Sequence record: NC_047777.1
Direction: 5' to 3' (one strand)
Length of the DNA stretch: 40,291 nucleotides
Source: Escherichia phage ZG49
The position numbers were made by a program, and so were the translations under genes. Below, one piece after another: positions 1-40,291 of this stretch; within the stretch, counting starts at the first letter, position 1; each line of letters starts with the position of its first letter. Below the pieces are notes generated by a model. The model was not told the DNA's origin, did not search any database, and was given only the letters and a program-made list of their open reading frames with translations.

Positions 1-401
1 CCTAAGGCTTGCACCGATGGAAGGAGGGTGATATTAATCATAATCCCTCCAATACAGATAGTCACCGACCATAGATACAGGAGGTATGTAGCATATGGCA
101 AAGACCAAAGCTGTACTTAAAGCTCTGGCGACCAATCGAGCTACATACAGGTTTCTTGCTGCTGTTCTACTTGCTGCTGGCGTTACTGCTGGAAGTAAGT
201 GGGTCGGGTGGGTCGAGACTCTCGTATGTTCTCTGGTGTCTCAGTGTAATTAACGCAATCATGGTAACGATTCATGAGCGGAAGACCTAAGGTCAGTACG
301 TGGATAAAGACTCACTCTACTGACCTTAGCTACTGTAGTCAAGGACTTTAGGTAACACCTTAATAGAAGCTCACCTAGGGTCATCCTACTTATTGGTCTA
401 T
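1..401. repeat. Left direct terminal repeat, identical to 39891-40291
   Basis: Bases 1-401 read identically to 39891-40291; window begins and ends exactly on the repeat; T7-like genomes carry direct terminal repeats. Confidence 0.8.
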
Positions 402-689
402 CCTAGTGTCGCCTGACCTACGGTCCTTGACCTACAGTAGCTGCCACCTACGGTCACTCGATGAGTTTTGGACCAAAAGTTTGAGACCACATCTCACAGT
501 TCAAGAACCTCAAGTCTCCCCATAGGCCCTCTTTAAGTCCAGACCAAAGGCCCTACCCCAGTCTATCATAAGGCTGGACCGATGGTCAAGACGTTAGGTC
601 AACGATAGGTCTAGGCTATGGCTGGAGGTCAGGACGATAGGTAGGGACTATGGGTCTGTCTCTGAGTCTCTATCTGTATAACCATAGGT

Positions 690-780
690 CCTACAACCTA
701 GTCCTACAACCTACAGTCCTACAACCTACAGTCCTACAACCTACAGTCCTACAACCTACAGTCCTACAACCTACAGTCTA
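690..780. repeat. Tandem array of about 6 copies of a 15-bp unit (GTCCTACAACCTACA) in the left-end non-coding region
   Basis: Direct reading: a 13-bp partial copy followed by five exact 15-bp copies; no spacers. Confidence 0.8.
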
Positions 781-947
781 ACTAACCTACAGTATCAACC
801 ATAAGACACCAACACCTACGGTCATAGACCCACAGTTAATAGACACAAAGCTATAGACTTAAGGTCTTAAACATGTTAGTCAAAGACTATATCCTATTAC
901 ACCATGGGGCCGACGATAGCTTAATCAATATTATTTAAGATTACCTA

Positions 948-1309: not shown

Positions 1310-1834
1310 ATGAAACTGATAGGCAAAGGCGCGTTCACTAAGTGCTACCTGAAGGATTGCGGAAAGCGTGTACTTCTGGTCTCTTCAGACCCAATCAAGG
1401 AGTGTATGGCGTGGGGATGGTTCCCTGAGTCTTCACTGTTCCCTGAAGTCAAGATGATTGAGGTGGGCACGTATGAGATGGACTACATGCCACCAACACG
1501 AGGTCTCAAGGCGCATTTAGATGACGACCAGTGGCAACTCTATCAGGTGCTGCGAGATTGCTTCTCACGGTCTCCGGTATTCTCTCGACCTGCTGACCTG
1601 TATCACAAGTGGTACGAGATATTCCAAGCTGCACACGACAGGTCTGAGACCGAGACTGTGCGGGAAGGTCTGATGGATGTACTGATGGCGCTGGACGCTT
1701 GCGCTAACTTCGGGTCTGACATTCAGTTTGAGATAAGCCCACGAAATGTACGGGCTGTGAATGGTAAGCTGATACTAGTGGATTGTTTCTTCCTTGTGTC
1801 CAAGCTGCCAGAGGTGAGGGCGTTAAGATGGTAA
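1310..1834 (+). CDS. gp0.7-like serine/threonine protein kinase (kinase domain only, 174 aa)
   Basis: Glycine-rich loop IGKGAFTKCY resembles T7 gp0.7 LGNGHFSAAY; further similarity (VLRDCF, ILVDCFF); RBS AAGGA upstream; first gene after early promoters. Confidence 0.7.
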   Translation: MKLIGKGAFTKCYLKDCGKRVLLVSSDPIKECMAWGWFPESSLFPEVKMIEVGTYEMDYMPPTRGLKAHLDDDQWQLYQVLRDCFSRSPVFSRPADLYHKWYEIFQAAHDRSETETVREGLMDVLMALDACANFGSDIQFEISPRNVRAVNGKLILVDCFFLVSKLPEVRALRW

Positions 1835-2289
1835 CTTATGGTCTCTGCCAGCACCACGTCACCAACGCCCGGCTTATGGTCGAGACCGGGCAGTTAGACC
1901 ACGAGATGACGACCAGTGGCAACTCTATCAGGTGCTGCGAGATTGCTTCTCACGGTCTCCGGTATTCTCTCGACCTGCTGACCTGTATCACAAGTGGTAC
2001 GAGATATTCCAAGCTGCACACGACAGGTCTGAGACCGAGACTGTGCGGGAAGGTCTGATGGATGTACTGATGGCGCTGGACGCTTGCGCTAACTTCGGGT
2101 CTGACATTCAGTTTGAGATAAGCCCACGAAATGTACGGGCTGTGAATGGTAAGCTGATACTAGTGGATTGTTTCTTCCTTGTGTCCAAGCTGCCAGAGGT
2201 GAGGGCGTTAAGATGGTAACTTATGGTCTCTGCCAGCACCACGTCACCAACGCCCGGCTTATGGTCGAGACCGGGCAGTTAGACCACGA
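1520..2289. repeat. Tandem duplication A: two identical 385-bp copies (1520-1904, 1905-2289)
   Basis: Direct reading; ORFs 1310-1834 and 1932-2219 share an identical C-terminal 95 aa; 1783-2058 and 2168-2362 share their N-terminus. Confidence 0.9.
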
Positions 2290-6429: not shown

Positions 6430-6681
6430 ATGAGTGAACGTTGGTTATTCGACGCATCCACGAGCCAGTGGTCAGCGGTAGGCCGGACTCACCGCGCGAT
6501 GAGTGAGGCAGGACTTGATGTCCTAATGGATTACTCGCCGTGCCCCGGAAAAACTCTGGTCAGAGTAATTGAAGCAGATGGTGGGAGGCTTCTGGTCTCC
6601 AGAGAATTTACCGAAGATGAAATCTTTAGCTGTGAGCAATGGTGCTTACAACAATTGAACGATTATAGGAGCTGGAAATAA
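6430..6681 (+). CDS. gp1.2-like protein (dGTPase inhibitor family)
   Basis: 83 aa versus T7 gp1.2 85 aa; similar C-terminal end (DYRSWK versus DQLKDWK); conserved position. Confidence 0.5.
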   Translation: MSERWLFDASTSQWSAVGRTHRAMSEAGLDVLMDYSPCPGKTLVRVIEADGGRLLVSREFTEDEIFSCEQWCLQQLNDYRSWK

Positions 6682-7736
6682 TGACTACGACTATTAAAAC
6701 TAACCCGCACCGCGCTGTAGATTACTCTGAGTCAGGAGTTACGAAAGCACTGGCAGCAGCCGGGTCGCTGGAAGCTGAAGTGAAGTATGATGGTGTGCGG
6801 CTGAACCTCCCGGTCTTCCCTACTGGTGAGACTCAATGGTTGAGCCGTGAGTCTAAACCTCTCCCAGCCCTTGAGTGGCTGTCAGTCCTTACCAACATCG
6901 ACAACATCGTCGGGGACCAGCAAAAAGCTAGCGACTGGCGGTGGTTCCTGAAGCAGGCTGGCTACGAAGGCACTGGTCTGATGATTGACGGTGAGGTCAT
7001 GGTAAAAGGAATGGACTTCAATACGTCTTCAGGTCTCATCCGAACGAAGTGGGTAAAGCAAAAGAACTTTGAGTTTTCAACTGGTGAGCACTGGGGTAAG
7101 GACTGGACGAAAGAGAAGCTACCATTCTGTCTGGACCAGAGGTTCATCAAGGTGGTCGTCTACGGTGTAGTGGACCTTAACGTCATCCTTGACCCGAAAG
7201 CCGAAGGTCCTATCCATAGCGTCACACGCCTGAAGGCCGAAGCTATCGTCCCTCTCCTCCAGAAATACTCCCCTGAAATCGACTGGGTTCTGTCTGAGTC
7301 ACACACGGTCTATGACCTTGAGTCGCTCAGCTCCCTGTACGAAGAGAAGCGGCTGGAAGGACATGAGGGTCTGGTAGTCAAGGACCCACTGGGTAAATAC
7401 AAGCGTGGCAAGAAGTCAGGCATGTGGAAGATGAAGCCAAGCGAAGAGGCAGACGGTCACGTTGTGCGCCCTGTGTGGGGTACGGATGGGTTAGCCAACG
7501 AAGGCATGGTCATCGGATTTGACGTTATGCTTGAGAACGGGATGGAGGTCTCCGCAACTAACATTAGTCGCGCCCTTATGTCCGAGTTCACGGAGAATGT
7601 TAAGTCAGACCCTGACTACTACAAGGGGTGGGCTTGCCAGATTACCTACATGGAGGAGACACCAGATGGCTCATTGCGACACCCCTCGTTCGACCAGTGG
7701 CGTGGAACTGAGGATAACCCGACCATTAAGAGCTAA
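6681..7736 (+). CDS. ATP-dependent DNA ligase (gp1.3-like)
   Basis: Adenylation motif KYDGVR; 351 aa versus T7 ligase 359 aa; conserved position. Confidence 0.9.
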   Translation: MTTTIKTNPHRAVDYSESGVTKALAAAGSLEAEVKYDGVRLNLPVFPTGETQWLSRESKPLPALEWLSVLTNIDNIVGDQQKASDWRWFLKQAGYEGTGLMIDGEVMVKGMDFNTSSGLIRTKWVKQKNFEFSTGEHWGKDWTKEKLPFCLDQRFIKVVVYGVVDLNVILDPKAEGPIHSVTRLKAEAIVPLLQKYSPEIDWVLSESHTVYDLESLSSLYEEKRLEGHEGLVVKDPLGKYKRGKKSGMWKMKPSEEADGHVVRPVWGTDGLANEGMVIGFDVMLENGMEVSATNISRALMSEFTENVKSDPDYYKGWACQITYMEETPDGSLRHPSFDQWRGTEDNPTIKS

Positions 7737-7745
7737 CTAAATGTC

Positions 7746-7783
7746 AACCCAGTGGTCTTAGGACTGCTGGGTTTCTTTGCTTG
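7746..7783 (+). terminator. Candidate intrinsic terminator (TE-like) after the ligase gene
   Basis: 7-bp stem AACCCAG/CTGGGTT followed by TTTCTTTGCTT; T7 places its early terminator after gene 1.3. Confidence 0.45.
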
Positions 7784-7820: not shown

Positions 7821-7838
7821 TAAGCTATCACTATAGGA
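7821..7838 (+). promoter_or_regulatory. Phage RNAP promoter TAAGCTATCACTATAGGA
   Basis: One mismatch to consensus; intergenic. Confidence 0.65.
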
Positions 7839-7867: not shown

Positions 7868-8122
7868 ATGTTTAAGAACTTAATGTTCAATCGTTATACC
7901 AGTACATTCCACCTGTCTCACAACCCATTAGCTTGCATTAAGCGCAACGAGAAGCTGGGCTACTTCGGGAAGGCCGTTAAGCTGTCACCTACAGTCTTCG
8001 CTCTGATTACTCCGGGCAAAGCTGAAGAGGCTCGCCAGAAGCGTGCGACCCACGTACCTGTGGTCTACACTAAGTGGCCTCGAGTTCGTCTGTTCGTTGA
8101 GTTCGTGAAGGAGGTGTTCTGA
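7868..8122 (+). CDS. gp1.6-like hypothetical protein (84 aa)
   Basis: RBS AAGGAGG; position between ligase and gp1.7. Confidence 0.5.
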   Translation: MFKNLMFNRYTSTFHLSHNPLACIKRNEKLGYFGKAVKLSPTVFALITPGKAEEARQKRATHVPVVYTKWPRVRLFVEFVKEVF

Positions 8123-8854
8123 TGGGATGTATAGCTTGCTTAGAGAAACCAGAGGTAACTCCTACAGATGACCAACCTTCCACTGAGTCAATCGACGCTG
8201 TCCGCAAGCCGTCCCACTATCAGGTATTTGACGGAGTGGAGTCCATTGAGATTATCGCTCGGTCCATGACTGTCAGCGAGTTCCGTGGGTTCTGCATGGG
8301 TAACGTCCTGAAGTATCGACTCCGAGCTGGTAAGAAGTCCGAGCTGGCTACTATGGAGAAGGACCTGAACAAAGCGGACTTCTATCAGGAGCTGTTCGAC
8401 CTGAGCTGGGCTACTTCGGGAAGGCCGTTAAGCTGTCACCTACAGTCTTCGCTCTGATTACTCCGGGCAAAGCTGAAGAGGCTCGCCAGAAGCGTGCGAC
8501 CCACGTACCTGTGGTCTACACTAAGTGGCCTCGAGTTCGTCTGTTCGTTGAGTTCGTGAAGGAGGTGTTCTGATGGGATGTATAGCTTGCTTAGAGAAAC
8601 CAGAGGTAACTCCTACAGATGACCAACCTTCCACTGAGTCAATCGACGCTGTCCGCAAGCCGTCCCACTATCAGGTATTTGACGGAGTGGAGTCCATTGA
8701 GATTATCGCTCGGTCCATGACTGTCAGCGAGTTCCGTGGGTTCTGCATGGGTAACGTCCTGAAGTATCGACTCCGAGCTGGTAAGAAGTCCGAGCTGGCT
8801 ACTATGGAGAAGGACCTGAACAAAGCGGACTTCTATCAGGAGCTGTTCGACCTG
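7953..8854. repeat. Tandem duplication B: two identical 451-bp copies (7953-8403, 8404-8854)
   Basis: Direct reading; ORFs 8122-8457 and 8573-8881 share their first 94 aa. Confidence 0.9.
8122..8457 (+). pseudogene. Chimeric gp1.7 copy created by duplication B (native C-terminus replaced by out-of-frame gp1.6 sequence)
   Basis: Identical to 8573-8881 until ...QELFDL, then diverges at the duplication junction. Confidence 0.6.
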
Positions 8855-8881
8855 CACAAAGGTAAGTGTTATGACGTATGA
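8573..8881 (+). CDS. gp1.7-like protein (nucleotide kinase family), 102 aa
   Basis: GCIACLEK...KPEVTPTDDQPS...IARSMTV...KYRLRAGKKSELA...KADFY resembles the T7 gp1.7 C-terminal half (from memory). Confidence 0.65.
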   Translation: MGCIACLEKPEVTPTDDQPSTESIDAVRKPSHYQVFDGVESIEIIARSMTVSEFRGFCMGNVLKYRLRAGKKSELATMEKDLNKADFYQELFDLHKGKCYDV

Positions 8882-8910: not shown

Positions 8911-9009
8911 ATGCTTAAACCGAGTGAGTGGTGCCGGGAGATGTACGAGAAGACTCTCAACCCGGACTACATTACGTTATACAACCAATGGAAGGAGCGT
9001 GGTCTATGA
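8911..9009 (+). CDS. Small ORF (32 aa), gp1.8-like position
   Basis: ATG at 8911, ends overlapping the gp2 start; no motif. Confidence 0.25.
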
Positions 9010-9164
9010 CTGACGTAGAGAAGAAATACATCGTTGAGCTTGAGGGTCGCGTTCAGTCCTTCGAGGTTCCGGTGTACGCAAAGTCTCTTGAAGAGGCTAC
9101 ACTGAAGTCCCAAGAGTATGAGGACGCTGGGTTTGTGGTCGGACGGATTCGTCCTGAGACCTAA
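9006..9164 (+). CDS. gp2-like inhibitor of host RNA polymerase (52 aa)
   Basis: [14 protein letters not shown]...[10 protein letters not shown] versus T7 gp2 SFEVPIYAETLDEA...AGFEVTRVRP; RBS AAGGAG before ATG 9006. Confidence 0.7.
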
Positions 9165-9179
9165 ACTATCACTGTAGGA
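9162..9179 (+). promoter_or_regulatory. Phage RNAP promoter variant TAAACTATCACTGTAGGA (phi2.5-like position)
   Basis: One mismatch (-3 G) to consensus. Confidence 0.5.
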
Positions 9180-9976: not shown

Positions 9977-10426
9977 ATGAGTAGAGGACATCAAGTAGGT
10001 GCTTATCGCTCTGGACTCGAAGCAAAGAACCAAGAGTGGCTTGAGAAGAATGGCGTAAAAGCTGAATACGAAGCATATAAAATAGGCTACGTAGTACCAT
10101 CCAGCGACCACTTCTACACACCAGATTTTATCCTTCCTAACGGTATCATCGTGGAGACCAAAGGTCTCTTCGATAGTGATGACCGTAAGAAGCACCTTCT
10201 GGTACGAGAACAGCACCCTGAGTTAGACATTCGGTTCGTGTTCTCAAGTTCACGCTCCAAGTTATACAAGGGGTCTCCGACCACGTATGGCGCATGGTGC
10301 GAAAAGAACGGCTTTAAGTTTGCCGACAAGTTTATCCCGGTTGAGTGGCTGAGAGAGGTGACTGTACGTCTACCTTCAGGTATTCTCATCCCCAAGAAGA
10401 AAGGAGTTAAGGATATTCGCACCTAA
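9977..10426 (+). CDS. Endonuclease I (gp3-like Holliday junction resolvase, 149 aa from ATG 9977)
   Basis: Strong similarity to T7 gp3 (GAYRSGLE, YTPDF, PNGI.VETKGL..SDDRKKHLL.REQHPELDIR.VFSSSR.KLYKGSPT); track ORF starts earlier at 9920. Confidence 0.85.
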   Translation: MSRGHQVGAYRSGLEAKNQEWLEKNGVKAEYEAYKIGYVVPSSDHFYTPDFILPNGIIVETKGLFDSDDRKKHLLVREQHPELDIRFVFSSSRSKLYKGSPTTYGAWCEKNGFKFADKFIPVEWLREVTVRLPSGILIPKKKGVKDIRT

Positions 10427-11009
10427 AGCGAGACCCTTAAGTTTATGGCTGAAAAATACTCAGTAAGTGAGACAACCATAAGTCGAATCAGGAACAACAA
10501 GAGGTGGAAATAATAATGGGAAGTAAAGTACAATTCATGCCACGCAAGTCAACTGACGCTATCTTCGTTCACTGTTCGGCTACCAAGCCAGAGATGGACA
10601 TCGGGGTAGAGACCATCCGTATGGTGTTCTCAAGTTCACGCTCCAAGTTATACAAGGGGTCTCCGACCACGTATGGCGCATGGTGCGAAAAGAACGGCTT
10701 TAAGTTTGCCGACAAGTTTATCCCGGTTGAGTGGCTGAGAGAGGTGACTGTACGTCTACCTTCAGGTATTCTCATCCCCAAGAAGAAAGGAGTTAAGGAT
10801 ATTCGCACCTAAAGCGAGACCCTTAAGTTTATGGCTGAAAAATACTCAGTAAGTGAGACAACCATAAGTCGAATCAGGAACAACAAGAGGTGGAAATAAT
10901 AATGGGAAGTAAAGTACAATTCATGCCACGCAAGTCAACTGACGCTATCTTCGTTCACTGTTCGGCTACCAAGCCAGAGATGGACATCGGGGTAGAGACC
11001 ATCCGTATG
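10238..11009. repeat. Tandem duplication C: two identical 386-bp copies (10238-10623, 10624-11009)
   Basis: Direct reading; ORF 10504-10812 has the lysozyme N-terminus fused to the endonuclease I C-terminus. Confidence 0.9.
10504..10812 (+). pseudogene. Chimeric ORF: lysozyme N-terminal 40 aa fused to endonuclease I C-terminal 62 aa
   Basis: N-terminus identical to 10890-11360 and C-terminus identical to 9920-10426; switch at the duplication junction. Confidence 0.6.
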
Positions 11010-13369: not shown

Positions 13370-13380
13370 GGAGGAGTACA

Positions 13381-13545
13381 TTGCTAAGAAAACTTAAAGC
13401 TCGCTACCATCGGTTCATGTACAAATGGTGGAGTGATGAAGCAACCTGCCTGTCCAACATTCTGGGAGACCAGAGGTTCGACTCTAAGGCATGGAAGAAA
13501 GCTAACCGGAAGTTTATGTATCACTTCTTGCGTACAGACTTCTAG
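13381..13545 (+). CDS. Small basic ORF (about 54 aa), gp4.3/4.5-like position; start uncertain
   Basis: TTG at 13381 with RBS AAGGAGGA; in frame with track ORF 13348-13545. Confidence 0.25.
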
Positions 13546-13555
13546 GTCTAGACTC

Positions 13556-13580
13556 AAGGTCATTCACATCGAGTGGCCTT
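13556..13580 (+). promoter_or_regulatory. RNA hairpin (10-bp stem, 5-nt loop); candidate RNase III site (R4.7-like)
   Basis: AAGGUCAUUC / GAGUGGCCUU; same flanking motif as 6183 and 37388. Confidence 0.45.
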
Positions 13581-13608
13581 TATGATTAGACTAAACGGAG
13601 GATTAACC

Positions 13609-15780
13609 ATGTTTGACCTTAAGAGTATCTGGGGTTCTGACATAGAGACCAACGGTCTCCTTGATACAGTCTCCCAGTTTCACTGTGGGGTCCTGATTAA
13701 CGCCGAGTCGAATGAGACCCTTAAGTATGGGGTAGCTCCGATGGTCGGTATCGTCGGTGGCTTCAAAGAGTATGTACAGAAGGTGGAAGAGATTGCCGCA
13801 TCACCTGATGGTATGCTGGTATTCCACAACGGTATCAACTATGACGTACCTGCTATTGACAAGCTGAAACGTCTGTACTTTGGGAAACGTTTCAACTTCC
13901 CGAAACACAAGATGATTGATACCTTGGTGCTGGGCCGCTTGATGTATCCCAACATTAAGTTCTCAGACATGGGAGCAGTGAAAGCTGGTCGTCTGCCACC
14001 TAAGATGATGGGACGCCAGTCTCTTGAGGCTTGGGGCTATCGTCTCGGTGAGATGAAAGGTGAGTACAAACACGATTACGTTGCCAAGTGCAAGGCTGAA
14101 GGTATCGAATATAAGGCTGGGGACGAATGGTTGTTCCCATCTCAGGAGATGCTAGACTATAACGTTCAAGACGTTGTGGTCACACTGGCGTTGTTCAAGA
14201 AGTTCCTGACTGACAAGTATTACTTCCAGTCTGAACAGTTTGCTTTCGACCAGATTTATGCGTTGCGTCTGGAACATGATGCTGCGTGGACCTGTGCGAA
14301 GATGGAACGTAACGGCTATCCGATGAACACCGAGATGGTCGAAGGTTTATATCGTGAACTCACCGTCAAACGTGCAGAGCTGTTGGACAAGCTGCGTTCG
14401 ACTTTCGGTAGCTGGTATGCACCAAAGGGAGGCAAGGAGTTCTTCAAGCACCCACGGACAGGCAAGGACCTTCCGAAGTATCCGCGAGTCGTGTATCCTA
14501 AGGTCGGGTCAGTATTCAAGAAGCCGAAGAACAAAGCTCAACGCTTAGGTCTGGAGCCTTGCGAGTTAGACTCACGAGACACGATGGAAGGAGCACCGTT
14601 CACGCCAATCACTTACGTTGAGTTTAATCCGGGAAGCGGAGACCACTTAGCGAAAGTCTTGATGGAGCGTGGTTGGGAGCCTGTGGACTTCACTGACACT
14701 GGGAAACCTGTAGTCGATGACGAGACGTTAGAACACGTTAAGCTACCAGACGCAGAGGCTCAGGCTTGCGTAGAGCTGGTCCGTGAGTATCTGGTAGTCC
14801 AGAAGCGCATCGGTCAGGCGGCTGAAGGTAAGAACGCATGGTTGAAACTTGTAGGTCCAGACGGACGTATGCACGGTTCAATCAACCCATGCGGTGCAGT
14901 AACAGGACGTGCGACTCATAGTTCACCAAACATGGCTCAGGTCCCTGCTAACGGTGCTCCGTATGGTGAGATTTGCCGTGGTGCTTTCGGTGCAGCTTGG
15001 AACAAGACGGATGGTAAGCCAGACCCTTGGATTCAAGTGGGTGTGGATGCTTCAGGTCTTGAGCTTCGTTGTCTGGGGAACCGAGCAGCTCCGTTTGATG
15101 GTGGTGCCTATGCGAAGACTGTGGTCGAAGGTGACATCCACTGGGCCAACGCAGTAAACGCTGGGTTAGCACCTAATGTCCCACGAGATAAGTTGAACCA
15201 CGACCATGATGCTTTCCGTAACAACGCTAAGACGTTCATCTATGCGTTCCTGTATGGTGCAGGGGCCGCTAAGATTGGACTGATAGTCGGCGGTGGTAAG
15301 AAGGAAGGTTCAGCTCTCATGAAGAAATTCATTGAGGGTACACCAGCCATCAAGGACCTCAGGGAAGCTGTGAGTAAGACGTTAATCTCAGACTCTAAGT
15401 GGGTGGACGGAGAGAACATCGTTAAGTGGAAACGCCGTTGGTTGCGTGGACTTGATGGTCGCCGTATCCACATCCGGTCTCCGCACTCAGCACTGAACGC
15501 CTTACTTCAAGGTGACGGTGCGGTAGTTTGTAAAACGTGGTTCACTTGGCTTGAGAGGAACCTAGAAGCTAAAGGCTACGTGCATGGCTGGGATGGTGAC
15601 TTTGCGATTATGGCTTTTGTCCATGACGAAGTTCAGGTTGCCGCAAGGACTATGGAAATAGCTGAGGACATAGTTAGGGTGGCGCAGTCCACAATGCGAG
15701 AGGTTGGAGAGTTCTACCAGTTCAAGTGTGTGCTTGACACCGAGGGTAAGATAGGACCTACGTGGCGCGAATGTCACTAA
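13609..15780 (+). CDS. DNA polymerase (gp5-like, family A) with thioredoxin-binding loop
   Basis: Colinear similarity to T7 DNAP including the thioredoxin-binding insert (TFGSWY.PKGG.E.F.HPRTGK.LPKYPR...PKVG..FKKPKNKAQR); ATG 13609 after GGAGG. Confidence 0.95.
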   Translation: MFDLKSIWGSDIETNGLLDTVSQFHCGVLINAESNETLKYGVAPMVGIVGGFKEYVQKVEEIAASPDGMLVFHNGINYDVPAIDKLKRLYFGKRFNFPKHKMIDTLVLGRLMYPNIKFSDMGAVKAGRLPPKMMGRQSLEAWGYRLGEMKGEYKHDYVAKCKAEGIEYKAGDEWLFPSQEMLDYNVQDVVVTLALFKKFLTDKYYFQSEQFAFDQIYALRLEHDAAWTCAKMERNGYPMNTEMVEGLYRELTVKRAELLDKLRSTFGSWYAPKGGKEFFKHPRTGKDLPKYPRVVYPKVGSVFKKPKNKAQRLGLEPCELDSRDTMEGAPFTPITYVEFNPGSGDHLAKVLMERGWEPVDFTDTGKPVVDDETLEHVKLPDAEAQACVELVREYLVVQKRIGQAAEGKNAWLKLVGPDGRMHGSINPCGAVTGRATHSSPNMAQVPANGAPYGEICRGAFGAAWNKTDGKPDPWIQVGVDASGLELRCLGNRAAPFDGGAYAKTVVEGDIHWANAVNAGLAPNVPRDKLNHDHDAFRNNAKTFIYAFLYGAGAAKIGLIVGGGKKEGSALMKKFIEGTPAIKDLREAVSKTLISDSKWVDGENIVKWKRRWLRGLDGRRIHIRSPHSALNALLQGDGAVVCKTWFTWLERNLEAKGYVHGWDGDFAIMAFVHDEVQVAARTMEIAEDIVRVAQSTMREVGEFYQFKCVLDTEGKIGPTWRECH

Positions 15781-33576: not shown

Positions 33577-35637
33577 ATGTCCACGATTACACAATTCCCT
33601 TCAGGAAACACTCAGTACAGGATTGAGTTCGACTACCTAGCCAGAACGTTTGTTGTTGTTACGCTGGTGAATAGCTCTAACCCTACCCTGAACCGTGTAC
33701 TGGAAGTTGGTCGAGATTACCGATTCCTTAACCCAACGATGATTGAGATGTTGGTTGACCAATCAGGTTTCGACATCGTTCGTATTCACCGTCAGACTGG
33801 AACTGACTTAGTGGTAGACTTCAGGAATGGCTCAGTGTTGACAGCTAGTGACCTGACCAATTCAGAGCTTCAGGCTATCCATATTGCAGAAGAAGGTCGA
33901 GACCAAACGGTTGACTTAGCGAAGGAATATGCCGATGCTGCTGGTAGCTCTGCTGGCAACGCTAAGGATAGCGAGGACGAAGCACGCCGAATCGCTGCGA
34001 GTATCAGGGAAGCTGGTCTAATTGGCTATATTACCCGTCGCTCCTTCGAGAAAGGCTACAACGTTACAACATGGAGCGAGGTCCTGCTATGGGAAGAGGA
34101 TGGTGATTATTACCGCTGGGATGGTACGCTTCCAAAGAACGTTCCTGCTGGTTCAACTCCTGAAACTTCCGGTGGGATTGGATTAGGTGCGTGGGTTAGT
34201 GTTGGTGATGCTGCTTTAAGAAGTCAGATTTCAAACCCGGAAGGGGCAATACTCTACCCGGAATTGCAGATGGCAAGATGGCGTGATGAGGGTGATGTTC
34301 GAGGCTGGGGTGCTAAAGGGGATGGTGTAACAGATAGTACGGAGAATATAGCTGCTTCACTAAATTCTCAAAAAGCTGTCGTAGCATCAGAAGGTGTATT
34401 CTCTAGTTCTGGTATTAATAGTAATTACTGTAACTTAGACGGTAGAGGCAGTGGTGTACTAAGTCACCGTTCAAGTACAGGTAACTACTTAGTATTTAAC
34501 AATCTACGCTCAGGTCGCTTAAGTAATATTACGGTAGAAAGTAATAAGGCGACCGATACCACTCAAGGGCAGCAGGTATCTCTTGCTGGTGGCAGTGATG
34601 TTACTATAAGTGATGTTAATTTCTCAAACGTTAAGGGCGCTGGTTTCAGTTTAATCACATACCCTAATGATGCACCCTCTGATGGGCTTATGATTAAAGG
34701 CATTCGAGGTAGCTACTCCGGCTATGCTACTAATAAGGCGGCTGGATGCATACTTGCTGATTCCTCAGTTAACTCCCTCATAAATAACGTCATTGCTAAG
34801 AACTACCCTCAGTTCGGGGCTGTAGAACTGAAAGGTACAGCCAGTTATAACATAGTCAGCAATGTTATAGGGGCAGACTGCCAGCATGTAACTTACAACG
34901 GTACAGAAGGGTCAATAGCTCCCTCTAACAACCTTATCAATGGGGTAGTGGCTAATAATCCTAAATATGCAGCGGTTGTTGCAGGCAAAGGTAGTACCAA
35001 CTTAATCTCCGATGTGCTTGTAGATTTCTCAACCTCTGATGCTAGGCAGGCTCATGGTGTTACAGTAGAAGGTTCTGATAACGTCATAAATAATGTGCTT
35101 ATGTCAGGGTGTGATGGTACTAACTCTTTAGGGCAAGCTCAGACTGCTACAATTGCGCGCTTTATAGATACGGCTAATAACAACTATGCGTCTGTATTTC
35201 CTAGCTACAGTGCTACAGGTGTTATTACTTTCGAATCAGGTTCTACCCGTAACTTCGTAGAGGTAAAGCATCCGGGAAGGAGAAACGACCTTCTCAGTGC
35301 TACTGGTACTATTGAAGGTAAAGTTACTATTGACGGCACTAGTAATAGCAACGTAGTGCACGCTCCTGCATTAGGACAGTACATAGGCAGTATGTCCGGT
35401 AGGTTCGAATGGCGGATTAAGTCCATGTCACTTCCGTCAGGCGTTCTTACCTCGGCTGATAAGTACAGAATGCTTGGGGATGGTGCTGTGTCATTAGCTG
35501 TAGGTGGGGGTACTTCTTCTCAAGTTCGCCTATTTACTTCTGATGGTACTTATCGGACAGTATCACTCACCAACGGTAACGTGCGTCTTCCTACCAGTAG
35601 CACAGGTTATTTGCAGTTAGGTTCTAGCTCCCTCTAA
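33577..35637 (+). CDS. Tailspike (gp17-like), N-terminal 686-aa fragment truncated by tandem duplication D
   Basis: N-terminal 150 aa resemble the T7 gp17 adaptor domain (EFDYLARTFVVVTL, DYRF, VDFRNGSVL.ASDL, IAEEGRD); then a beta-helix-like region (WGAKGDGVTD); reading frame breaks at the duplication junction at 35625. Confidence 0.8.
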   Translation: MSTITQFPSGNTQYRIEFDYLARTFVVVTLVNSSNPTLNRVLEVGRDYRFLNPTMIEMLVDQSGFDIVRIHRQTGTDLVVDFRNGSVLTASDLTNSELQAIHIAEEGRDQTVDLAKEYADAAGSSAGNAKDSEDEARRIAASIREAGLIGYITRRSFEKGYNVTTWSEVLLWEEDGDYYRWDGTLPKNVPAGSTPETSGGIGLGAWVSVGDAALRSQISNPEGAILYPELQMARWRDEGDVRGWGAKGDGVTDSTENIAASLNSQKAVVASEGVFSSSGINSNYCNLDGRGSGVLSHRSSTGNYLVFNNLRSGRLSNITVESNKATDTTQGQQVSLAGGSDVTISDVNFSNVKGAGFSLITYPNDAPSDGLMIKGIRGSYSGYATNKAAGCILADSSVNSLINNVIAKNYPQFGAVELKGTASYNIVSNVIGADCQHVTYNGTEGSIAPSNNLINGVVANNPKYAAVVAGKGSTNLISDVLVDFSTSDARQAHGVTVEGSDNVINNVLMSGCDGTNSLGQAQTATIARFIDTANNNYASVFPSYSATGVITFESGSTRNFVEVKHPGRRNDLLSATGTIEGKVTIDGTSNSNVVHAPALGQYIGSMSGRFEWRIKSMSLPSGVLTSADKYRMLGDGAVSLAVGGGTSSQVRLFTSDGTYRTVSLTNGNVRLPTSSTGYLQLGSSSL

Positions 35638-36333
35638 CAACCTTATCAATGGGGTAGTGGCTAATAATCCTAAATATGCAGCGGTTGTTGCAGGCAAAGG
35701 TAGTACCAACTTAATCTCCGATGTGCTTGTAGATTTCTCAACCTCTGATGCTAGGCAGGCTCATGGTGTTACAGTAGAAGGTTCTGATAACGTCATAAAT
35801 AATGTGCTTATGTCAGGGTGTGATGGTACTAACTCTTTAGGGCAAGCTCAGACTGCTACAATTGCGCGCTTTATAGATACGGCTAATAACAACTATGCGT
35901 CTGTATTTCCTAGCTACAGTGCTACAGGTGTTATTACTTTCGAATCAGGTTCTACCCGTAACTTCGTAGAGGTAAAGCATCCGGGAAGGAGAAACGACCT
36001 TCTCAGTGCTACTGGTACTATTGAAGGTAAAGTTACTATTGACGGCACTAGTAATAGCAACGTAGTGCACGCTCCTGCATTAGGACAGTACATAGGCAGT
36101 ATGTCCGGTAGGTTCGAATGGCGGATTAAGTCCATGTCACTTCCGTCAGGCGTTCTTACCTCGGCTGATAAGTACAGAATGCTTGGGGATGGTGCTGTGT
36201 CATTAGCTGTAGGTGGGGGTACTTCTTCTCAAGTTCGCCTATTTACTTCTGATGGTACTTATCGGACAGTATCACTCACCAACGGTAACGTGCGTCTTCC
36301 TACCAGTAGCACAGGTTATTTGCAGTTAGGTTC
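34916..36333. repeat. Tandem duplication D: two identical 709-bp copies (34916-35624, 35625-36333) inside the tailspike gene
   Basis: Direct reading; ORFs 33577-35637 and 35657-36817 share about 230 identical residues. Confidence 0.9.
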
Positions 36334-36817
36334 CAATGCAATGACCCCAGATAGTACTAATACATACGCATTAGGTTCCGCAAGTCGAGCATGGTCTGGC
36401 GGTTTTACTCAATCAGCATTCACTGTTGTCTCAGATGCTAGGGATAAAACAGAGCCTCTTAATATCTCAGATGCTTTACTGGATGCTTGGTCTGAAGTTG
36501 ACTTTGTGCAGTTTCAGTACTTGGACCGAATTGAGGAGAAGGGTGCAGACTCAGCTAGATGGCACTTCGGCATCATCGCTCAGCGAGCTACGGAGGCCTT
36601 CGAACGTCACGGTATAGATGCACATCGCTATGGCTTCCTGTGCTTCGACAGTTGGGATGATGTGTACGAGGAAGATGCCAATGGCTCTCGTAAACTGATT
36701 ACACCAGCAGGTTCCCGCTATGGTATTCGTTACGAGGAAGTACTGATATTAGAGGCTGCGTTGATGCGGCGTACTATTAAGCGTATGCAGGAAGCATTAG
36801 CTGTTATGTCTAAGTGA
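35657..36817 (+). CDS. Tailspike C-terminal fragment (386 aa) including an intramolecular-chaperone-like domain
   Basis: C-terminus GSASRAWSGGFTQSAFTVVSDARDKTEP... resembles peptidase S74-type chaperone domains of phage tailspikes; begins at an internal Met created by the duplication. Confidence 0.65.
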   Translation: MANNPKYAAVVAGKGSTNLISDVLVDFSTSDARQAHGVTVEGSDNVINNVLMSGCDGTNSLGQAQTATIARFIDTANNNYASVFPSYSATGVITFESGSTRNFVEVKHPGRRNDLLSATGTIEGKVTIDGTSNSNVVHAPALGQYIGSMSGRFEWRIKSMSLPSGVLTSADKYRMLGDGAVSLAVGGGTSSQVRLFTSDGTYRTVSLTNGNVRLPTSSTGYLQLGSNAMTPDSTNTYALGSASRAWSGGFTQSAFTVVSDARDKTEPLNISDALLDAWSEVDFVQFQYLDRIEEKGADSARWHFGIIAQRATEAFERHGIDAHRYGFLCFDSWDDVYEEDANGSRKLITPAGSRYGIRYEEVLILEAALMRRTIKRMQEALAVMSK

Positions 36818-39890: not shown

Positions 39891-40291
39891 CCTAAGGCTT
39901 GCACCGATGGAAGGAGGGTGATATTAATCATAATCCCTCCAATACAGATAGTCACCGACCATAGATACAGGAGGTATGTAGCATATGGCAAAGACCAAAG
40001 CTGTACTTAAAGCTCTGGCGACCAATCGAGCTACATACAGGTTTCTTGCTGCTGTTCTACTTGCTGCTGGCGTTACTGCTGGAAGTAAGTGGGTCGGGTG
40101 GGTCGAGACTCTCGTATGTTCTCTGGTGTCTCAGTGTAATTAACGCAATCATGGTAACGATTCATGAGCGGAAGACCTAAGGTCAGTACGTGGATAAAGA
40201 CTCACTCTACTGACCTTAGCTACTGTAGTCAAGGACTTTAGGTAACACCTTAATAGAAGCTCACCTAGGGTCATCCTACTTATTGGTCTAT
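39891..40291. repeat. Right direct terminal repeat, identical to 1-401
   Basis: Direct comparison of both ends. Confidence 0.8.

What the first reader, a model, noticed from the sequence alone, without database searches (positions are those of the whole stretch)
7953..8854. 451-bp duplication spanning gp1.6 and gp1.7
Copy 1 carries an intact gp1.6 and a gp1.7 whose C-terminus is replaced by out-of-frame gp1.6 sequence; copy 2 carries a gp1.6 fragment and an intact gp1.7. This doubles the gp1.7 N-terminal region.
Basis: seen in the sequence. Interest (0 to 1): 0.45.

Follow-up and report, generated by a model that had tools for sequence, protein, structure and literature searches.

The report
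Probable assembly-made duplication in phage genome
The 451-base repeat across genes 1.6 and 1.7 of this T7-like phage is really in the sequence, but it is one of five same-style redundancies in the record, one of which breaks the essential tailspike gene, so it is most likely a product of how the sequence was put together and not phage biology.

Summary

The window is a Kayfunavirus (T7-like) genome. It holds three further perfect tandem duplications, of 385, 386 and 709 bp, and a 401-bp redundancy between its two ends. None of the four lengths is a multiple of 3. Junction microhomology is 0, 0, 0 and 1 bp, which is what chance gives.

The 709-bp duplication lies wholly inside the tailspike gene 17. 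It frameshifts the gene at residue 682 of 843 and removes the C-terminal chaperone domain. With the duplication collapsed, the gene is 97% identical, without gaps, to a single 843-aa gene in phage IME177. The genome as written should therefore not be viable.

The 401-bp end redundancy is a wrap-round overlap of a circularly permuted contig, not the biological terminal repeat. Five sequenced relatives and a Logan contig carry single copies. At most 1 of 974 related phage records has a second copy of the unit. The 8403|8404 junction is in none of four public collections, and the other three are absent from the viral contigs.

Most likely this is an assembly or stitching artefact (about 0.78). 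Only reads or PCR can prove it. Interest is low.

The parts
7825..7837 (+). Phage RNA-polymerase promoter core (CTATCACTATAGG) upstream of gp1.6. It lies outside the duplicated unit.
   Evidence: It is one of 10 matches to the phage promoter consensus, against 0.15 expected by chance. None of the matches lies in 7953-8854.
7868..8122 (+). gp1.6, 84 aa, intact. The duplication starts in its codon 29.
   Evidence: ORF. It matches phrog_1777 at E = 2e-33. CR44b annotates the homologue as gene 1.6.
7953..8403 (+). Copy 1 of the 451-bp unit. It holds the 3' two thirds of gp1.6 and codons 1-94 of gp1.7.
   Evidence: It is 100% identical to 8404-8854.
8404..8854 (+). Copy 2 of the 451-bp unit. The novel junction is 8403|8404 (…TTCGACCTG|AGCTGGGCT…), with 0 bp of microhomology.
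   Evidence: No record of the phage collection shows the junction in one aligned piece. It is absent from viral contigs, metagenome contigs and genome contigs.
8122..8457 (+). Chimeric gp1.7' of 111 aa: gp1.7 residues 1-94, with the complete DUF3310 domain, plus 17 out-of-frame residues from the gp1.6 fragment.
   Evidence: ORF. DUF3310 covers residues 27-89 at E = 1e-21. Alignment. The exact protein is not on record.
8404..8573 (+). Duplicated 3' fragment of gp1.6, from codon 29 to the stop, with no usable start codon. It carries the ribosome-binding site (AAGGAGGTG) and the TGATG stop/start overlap for the second gp1.7.
   Evidence: Sequence read. No ORF of 30 aa or more is listed in this frame.
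8573..8881 (+). gp1.7, short form, 102 aa, with a DUF3310 domain.
   Evidence: DUF3310 at E = 7e-22. It matches positions 76-172 of the 175-position phrog_2585 'nucleotide kinase' profile. It is a 78-codon in-frame deletion relative to the 180-aa protein of phage Bia.
8143..8147 (+). Scar (GAGAA) of the 234-bp in-frame deletion inside gp1.7. It is repeated at 8594-8598 in copy 2, so the deletion predates the duplication or whatever made it.
   Evidence: DNA alignment with Bia and IME177. The flanks are 100% identical to phages LNA5 and SHAK7854, which carry about 231-233 bp more. The scar junction is absent from viral and metagenome contigs.
1519..2288 (+). Sister redundancy 1: perfect tandem duplication of 385 bp (1519-1903 / 1904-2288), with 1 bp of microhomology. 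It spans the boundary between two early genes.
   Evidence: Phage YZ1 has a single copy.
10238..11009 (+). Sister redundancy 2: perfect tandem duplication of 386 bp (10238-10623 / 10624-11009), with 0 bp of microhomology. It spans gp3 (endonuclease I) and gp3.5 (amidase).
   Evidence: Phages YZ1 and PE3-1 have a single copy.
34916..36333 (+). Sister redundancy 3: perfect tandem duplication of 709 bp (34916-35624 / 35625-36333), with 0 bp of microhomology. It lies wholly inside tailspike gene 17 and frameshifts it after residue 682 of 843.
   Evidence: The collapsed ORF of 843 aa is 97.2% identical, without gaps, to the single 843-aa gene of IME177. The Peptidase_S74 chaperone domain at residues 716-776 is lost from the long ORF.
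1..401 (+). End redundancy: bases 1-401 are identical to 39891-40291 and include the gp19.5-like ORF. This is a wrap-round overlap of a circularly permuted contig.
   Evidence: The right end of phage YZ1 maps to window 491 and its left end to window 492, so the window's own ends are internal to the physical genome.

Best explanation
The 451-bp duplication is present in the record, but it most likely does not exist in the phage DNA. It looks like one of five overlap redundancies: four internal and one between the two ends of the record. These would arise when overlapping pieces of one circularly assembled Kayfunavirus genome, whether contigs, reads or chunks, are joined end to end without merging their overlaps. 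Each join writes the shared stretch twice, which gives a perfect, spacer-free tandem repeat whose breakpoints ignore genes and reading frames.

Shown here: the five redundancies, their perfect identity, the absence of microhomology, the frameshift in gene 17, the permuted ends, and the single copies in relatives.

Inferred: that a joining step produced them. I cannot tell which program or person did it.

Underneath is an ordinary gp1.6-gp1.7 locus with a single copy of each gene.
For: 1. The window holds four perfect tandem duplications, of 385, 451, 386 and 709 bp, plus a 401-bp identity between its ends. Four of the five lengths fall within 385-451 bp, which points to a technical length scale.
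2. Junction microhomology is 1, 0, 0 and 0 bp, the chance expectation. The genuine-looking 234-bp deletion in gp1.7 sits on a GAGAA repeat.
3. The 709-bp duplication lies inside gene 17 and is not a multiple of 3. The ORF stops after residue 682 plus 4 residues, losing the Peptidase_S74 chaperone domain at 716-776. The collapsed gene is an uninterrupted 843-aa ORF, 97.2% identical without gaps to the 843-aa protein of IME177. A phage with this genome should lack a functional tailspike. This class of tailspike uses its C-terminal intramolecular chaperone to fold (PMC4690869).
4. Breakpoint placement fits random placement. For these lengths, 2.0 of 4 duplications would be expected to fall inside a single gene, and 1 does.
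5. The ends of the window are not the physical genome ends. YZ1's termini map to window 491|492, so the 401-bp end redundancy is an untrimmed circular overlap. T7-like assemblies are often linearised at arbitrary internal points (PMC10438801).
6. YZ1, PE3-1, IME177, Bia and KM02 have single copies and no tandem repeat of period over 60. The closest local relative, a Logan contig that is 97-100% identical, has a single copy. Of 974 phage records matching the unit, there are 975 matching places, so at most one record has a second copy.
7. The 8403|8404 junction is absent from the phage collection, viral contigs, metagenome contigs and genome contigs. The other three junctions are absent from viral contigs.
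Against: - No reads are available, so the junction cannot be tested directly.
- This duplication on its own is compatible with a viable phage, since one intact gp1.6 and one gp1.7 remain. The same holds for the 385- and 386-bp ones.
- De Bruijn short-read assemblers usually collapse tandem repeats and do not create them, so a specific joining step has to be assumed.
- The rest of the genome is of high quality, with every large gene apart from gene 17 an intact ORF. It is therefore not a generally poor assembly.
- The source genome is not in the public collections: gp1.6, ligase and both gp1.7 forms have no exact match on record. Absence of the junctions elsewhere is therefore weak evidence.
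Confidence: 0.78

Rival explanations
1. The duplication is a real and very recent tandem duplication in the phage DNA. It would have arisen by illegitimate recombination or template switching during concatemer replication. It gives one intact gp1.6, a gp1.7 variant with a changed C-terminal tail and a second gp1.7, all transcribed from the promoter at 7825. It may exist only in part of the population.
For: The sequence is internally consistent, and the duplication leaves intact copies of both genes with their ribosome-binding sites. The chimeric ORF keeps the full DUF3310 domain. This locus is plastic in the genus: there is a unique in-frame deletion in the same gene, and gp1.7 N-termini differ among KM02, PE3-1, CR44b and YZ1. 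Assemblers more often collapse tandem repeats than create them (general knowledge).
Against: It comes with three other perfect duplications and an end overlap of the same style, and one of them inactivates the tailspike. There is no microhomology at the junction. From my own knowledge of the Studier and Masker work, not checked here, T7 rearrangements typically use short direct repeats, and long direct repeats in T7 are lost rapidly by recombination. Keeping four of them at 100% identity in a consensus would need selection, and no reason for such selection is apparent. Relatives have no counterpart.
Confidence: 0.14
2. The record is a chimera of two or more co-assembled, closely related phages. 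The repeats would mark places where the path switched between strains through a shared segment.
For: Kayfunaviruses are mosaic, and many near-identical strains co-occur in wastewater. Identity to the Logan contig varies from 97% to 100% over short distances around the unit.
Against: Strain switching through a shared segment gives a recombinant path, not a doubled segment. The two copies are identical to the last base in all four cases. The sequence that follows copy 2 continues collinearly from the same point as in relatives.
Confidence: 0.05

Closest known systems
Untrimmed overlap redundancy in assembled circular or concatemeric phage contigs, including contigs joined without merging their overlaps
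   Same: The repeat is perfect and has no spacer. There are several such repeats in one record. One of them is at the record's own ends, and those ends are permuted relative to the physical genome. The breakpoints ignore genes and reading frame.
   Different: Typical untrimmed overlaps occur only at contig ends and often have the assembler's k-mer length. Here four are internal and measure 385-709 bp, so an additional joining step has to be assumed.
Genuine tandem segmental duplications in phage genomes, as in classical phage genetics (lambda, T4, T7)
   Same: The architecture is head to tail. The duplication spans a gene boundary and leaves one intact copy of each gene plus a chimeric ORF at the junction.
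   Different: There is no junction microhomology. It co-occurs with a lethal duplication inside a gene. No independent occurrence was found.
T7 gene 1.7 nucleotide kinase family (Pfam DUF3310, PHROG 2585)
   Same: Both gp1.7 ORFs carry the DUF3310 domain at E of about 1e-21 and match the C-terminal 97 positions of phrog_2585.
   Different: They lack the roughly 75-78-residue cysteine-rich N-terminal region present in Bia, YZ1 and the Logan contig. Kinase activity of such short forms was not tested.

Membership tests
Biological tandem duplication | Two adjacent head-to-tail copies of the same segment | tested here: met
   451 of 451 bases are identical, at 7953-8403 and 8404-8854.
Biological tandem duplication | The novel junction is supported by independent molecules: reads, PCR or other assemblies | not testable with these tools
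   No reads are available. The junction is absent from the phage collection and from viral, metagenome and genome contigs. The source genome itself is not in those collections.
Biological tandem duplication | The genome that carries it is compatible with a propagating phage | tested here: not met
   This duplication alone is harmless. The 709-bp duplication in the same record frameshifts tailspike gene 17, which in IME177 is a single 843-aa ORF 97.2% identical to the collapsed window gene.
Biological tandem duplication | Short direct repeat (microhomology) at the breakpoints, as is usual for illegitimate recombination in T7-like phages | tested here: not met
   Microhomology is 0 bp here and 1, 0 and 0 bp at the other three junctions. 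The gp1.7 deletion in the same gene uses GAGAA.
Assembly or stitching overlap artefact | Perfectly identical copies with no spacer, recurring at several sites in one record | tested here: met
   There are four internal duplications and a 401-bp end redundancy, all 100% identical. Five relatives have none.
Assembly or stitching overlap artefact | The record's ends are arbitrary and overlap each other (circular wrap-round) | tested here: met
   Bases 1-401 equal 39891-40291. YZ1's termini map to window 491|492.
Assembly or stitching overlap artefact | Breakpoints are indifferent to gene boundaries, reading frame and viability | tested here: met
   None of the four lengths is a multiple of 3. One of the four lies inside a gene, against 2.0 expected under random placement. 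That one inactivates an essential gene.
Assembly or stitching overlap artefact | Reads do not span the junction, and read depth over the collapsed unit is even | not testable with these tools
   This needs the raw reads of the source assembly.
T7 gp1.7 nucleotide kinase (DUF3310 / phrog_2585) | DUF3310 domain above Pfam's gathering score | tested here: met
   Scores are 76.8 and 77.6 bits against a cut-off of 24, over residues 27-89.
T7 gp1.7 nucleotide kinase (DUF3310 / phrog_2585) | Full-length architecture with the N-terminal region | tested here: not met
   Only profile positions 76-172 of 175 are matched. There is a 78-codon deletion relative to Bia.
T7 gp1.7 nucleotide kinase (DUF3310 / phrog_2585) | Nucleotide kinase activity (dTMP/dGMP, as I recall for T7 gp1.7; not checked here) | not testable with these tools
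   This needs a biochemical assay.

The most novel reading that the evidence does not exclude
All four duplications are real. In that case this Kayfunavirus stock was sequenced just after a burst of microhomology-independent tandem duplications of 385-709 bp, for example from aberrant template switching or concatemer processing. The gp1.6-gp1.7 duplication would then give two expressed DUF3310 proteins with different C-terminal tails. The genome with a split tailspike would persist only as a defective or complemented majority.
Probability: 0.07. Interest if true: 0.45.

Novelty: not a real feature. Interest (0 to 1): 0.08.

Why it matters
If the duplication is an artefact, the practical point is quality control. 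As written, the record is about 1.9 kb too long internally and about 0.4 kb too long at its ends. It would be annotated with spurious chimeric genes (a 111-aa gp1.7', a 98-aa gp3.5-gp3 fusion and others) and with a falsely split tailspike. It should be collapsed to about 37.96 kb of unique sequence before use.

If the duplication were real, it would be an unusually direct snapshot of gene duplication in a T7-like phage, where long direct repeats are expected to be lost quickly (from my own knowledge, not checked here). In neither case does it reveal a new kind of system.

Tried and rejected
- **Junction in public data.** I looked for the 8403|8404 junction in the phage collection and in viral, metagenome and genome contigs. 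I looked for the other three junctions in viral contigs. Nothing was found. This is weak evidence, because the source genome is not in those collections.
- **Independent assembly of the same phage.** Exact-protein look-ups found nothing for chimeric gp1.7', gp1.7, ligase or gp1.6. The gp2.5 look-up found relatives only.
- **Regulatory element inside the unit.** A regulatory element inside the unit could have given its duplication a function. There is no phage promoter inside the unit. There are only two weak sigma-70-like matches, which are the same site duplicated, and no terminator.
- **Inverted repeats or hairpins at the breakpoints.** None were found.
- **The 401-bp end repeat as the biological terminal repeat.** Rejected, because YZ1's termini map about 491 bases inside the window.
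I redid it from the sequence.
- **Literature searches for T7 tandem duplications and for assembly-made duplications.** These gave no directly relevant open paper. Only general support on T7-like assembly problems turned up (PMC10438801).

Full report
**What the window is.** It is a T7-like phage genome of the genus Kayfunavirus (Autographiviridae, Studiervirinae). It is 93-96% identical over most of its length to Escherichia phages IME177, YZ1, KM02 and EcoIv41_Bia. Around the finding the gene order is the usual one:
- ligase gp1.3 at 6681-7736;
- a terminator-like hairpin at 7746-7773;
- a phage promoter at 7825;
- gp1.6, then gp1.7;
- a small DUF8272-type ORF, by position and length the counterpart of the 32-aa ORF in the Logan contig;
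- the RNA polymerase inhibitor gp2 at 9006-9164;
- a promoter at 9166;
- the single-strand binding protein gp2.5.

Bases 7953-8403 and 8404-8854 are identical at all 451 positions and abut directly. At period 451 the run of matches is exactly 451 long, so there is no shared base beyond the unit on either side and therefore no microhomology at the junction …TTCGACCTG|AGCTGGGCT….

- gp1.6 (7868-8122, 84 aa, phrog_1777) is intact.
- An ORF at 8122-8457 (111 aa) is gp1.7 residues 1-94 followed by 17 residues read out of frame through the duplicated gp1.6 fragment.
- The fragment 8404-8573 has no usable start codon.
- A second gp1.7 follows at 8573-8881 (102 aa).

Two details need refining. The chimeric ORF keeps the whole DUF3310 domain (residues 27-89), so nearly the entire protein is doubled. 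The 'intact' gp1.7 is a shortened form. It matches only positions 76-172 of the 175-position PHROG profile. Compared with the 180-aa gp1.7 of phage Bia it lacks 78 codons, in frame, between two LEK motifs. At the DNA level the deletion sits on a GAGAA direct repeat. Its flanks are 100% identical to phages LNA5 and SHAK7854, which carry the extra 231-233 bp or so.

**The finding is not alone.** A scan of the whole window changes the picture. There are three more perfect tandem duplications: 1519-1903/1904-2288 (385 bp), 10238-10623/10624-11009 (386 bp) and 34916-35624/35625-36333 (709 bp). In addition, the first 401 bases of the window equal its last 401. None of the four lengths is a multiple of three. 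Junction microhomology is 1, 0, 0 and 0 bp, which is the chance expectation. Four of the five redundancies measure 385-451 bp.

**The ends of the record are not the ends of the phage.** The last 491 bases of YZ1 map to window 1-491, and YZ1's first base maps to window 492. The window is therefore a circularly permuted contig. Its 401-bp end identity includes a gp19.5-like ORF at both ends and is an untrimmed wrap-round overlap, not the biological terminal repeat. Arbitrary linearisation of this kind is described for T7-like assemblies (PMC10438801).

**One sister duplication is lethal as written.** The 709-bp duplication lies entirely within tailspike gene 17. With the duplication, the ORF from 33577 ends at 35637, after 682 native residues plus 4. 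With it collapsed, the gene is a clean 843-aa ORF that is 97.2% identical, without a gap, to the single 843-aa gene of IME177. The collapsed protein has a T7 tail-fibre N-terminal domain, a tailspike N domain and a C-terminal Peptidase_S74 intramolecular chaperone at residues 716-776, and it resembles K5 lyases. The truncated product lacks that chaperone, which this class of tailspike uses to fold (PMC4690869). There is no second tailspike gene in the window. A phage with this exact genome should not be infective, so at least this duplication cannot be the majority state of a propagating stock.

**Placement looks random, not filtered by selection.** For duplications of these four lengths placed at random in the collapsed genome, 2.0 of 4 would be expected to have both breakpoints inside one gene. 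One does. The other three, including the one in question, are harmless only because they span boundaries between small genes.

**Relatives.** YZ1 has a single copy at each of the first three sites, and PE3-1 at the gp1.6-1.7 and gp3-3.5 sites; IME177, Bia and CR44b were checked at the gp1.6-1.7 unit. For the gene 17 site the single-copy evidence comes from IME177, since YZ1 and PE3-1 carry a different tailspike. YZ1, PE3-1, IME177, Bia and KM02 contain no exact tandem repeat of 60 bases or more with a period above 60. A Logan contig, 97-100% identical around gp1.3-gp2.5, also has one copy, with a full-length gp1.7. A search with the 451-bp unit found 975 matching places in 974 phage records, so at most one record holds a second copy. 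No phage record shows the 8403|8404 junction in one aligned piece. No viral, metagenome or genome contig contains it. The other three junctions are absent from viral contigs. These absences carry little weight, because the source genome itself is not in the collections.

**Interpretation.** The simplest account of all five redundancies is a joining artefact. Overlapping pieces of one circularly assembled genome were concatenated without merging the overlaps, so each overlap was written twice. This explains:
- the perfect identity of the copies;
- the lack of spacers and microhomology;
- the similar sizes;
- the indifference to reading frame and to an essential gene;
- the fifth redundancy at the permuted ends.

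It is an inference. I cannot identify the step that did it, and short-read assemblers normally collapse tandem repeats and do not create them. I give it 0.78.

The main rival is a real, very recent duplication, perhaps in part of the population (0.14). Taken alone, this duplication would be viable, and the gp1.7 locus is visibly plastic. The rival has to explain away the company the duplication keeps and the missing microhomology. From my own knowledge of T7 recombination, not checked here, it also has to explain how four 385-709-bp direct repeats persist. A strain-chimera origin is unlikely (0.05), because switching between strains does not double a segment.

**Comparison with what is known.** As a structure this is an ordinary tandem duplication. 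As a record feature it resembles untrimmed overlaps in phage contigs. The genes involved are ordinary members of the T7 gp1.6 and gp1.7 (DUF3310) families, the latter in a shortened form. Nothing here points to a new system.

**Verdict.** The biological reading is not supported. It is most likely not a real feature, and interest is low (0.08). Read mapping, or PCR across 8403|8404 and across 35624|35625, would settle it.

Noticed in passing
window 1519-2288, 10238-11009, 34916-36333 and 1-401 / 39891-40291: There are three further perfect tandem duplications (385, 386 and 709 bp) and a 401-bp identity between the two ends of the window. The 709-bp one frameshifts tailspike gene 17. Collapsing all of them leaves about 37,959 bp of unique sequence.
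   Followed up: yes
window 8143-8147 (again at 8594-8598): gp1.7 carries an in-frame 78-codon (234-bp) deletion of its cysteine-rich N-terminal region relative to Bia, LNA5, SHAK7854 and the Logan contig L011. The deletion sits on a GAGAA direct repeat. Its junction was found in no public collection searched. Other Kayfunaviruses (KM02, PE3-1, CR44b) have different short N-termini, so this part of gene 1.7 seems to be lost or replaced repeatedly.
   Followed up: partly
window junctions 1903|1904, 8403|8404, 10623|10624, 35624|35625: The stretches between successive junctions are 1903, 6500, 2220, 25001 and 4667 bases long. Two of these are oddly round, and two match runs are both exactly 386 bases. 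This may hint at a programmatic chunking or joining step, or it may be coincidence.
   Followed up: no
window 33577-36817 (collapsed 843 aa): The tailspike is of the K5-lyase type. It has a T7 tail-fibre N-terminal domain, a Tail_spike_N domain and a C-terminal Peptidase_S74 chaperone. It is up to 97% identical at the DNA level to 'K5 lyase' genes of unrelated, larger phages (UE-S5b, UE-M6). That suggests a K5-capsulated E. coli host and horizontal exchange of the spike.
   Followed up: partly
window 10516-10812: The chimeric ORF made by the 386-bp duplication is an in-frame fusion of the first roughly 36 residues of amidase gp3.5 to the C-terminal third of endonuclease I (Pfam Phage_endo_I positions 89-147). 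The window also lacks the 156-aa gp3.2 gene that IME177, the Logan contig and PE3-1 have between gp3 and gp3.5.
   Followed up: no
window 700-793 and about 492: A 15-nt tandem array (AGTCCTACAACCTAC, about 6 copies) lies just right of the position that corresponds to the physical left end of YZ1 (window 492). PE3-1 has a 16-nt array and an annotated concatemer junction at the equivalent place.
   Followed up: no
L002/L006 (IME177, MZ398247.1) 13374-14449 and 14902-15371: In the IME177 record, both the ligase and gp1.7 are split into two ORFs. These are probably frameshift errors in that deposited sequence.
   Followed up: no
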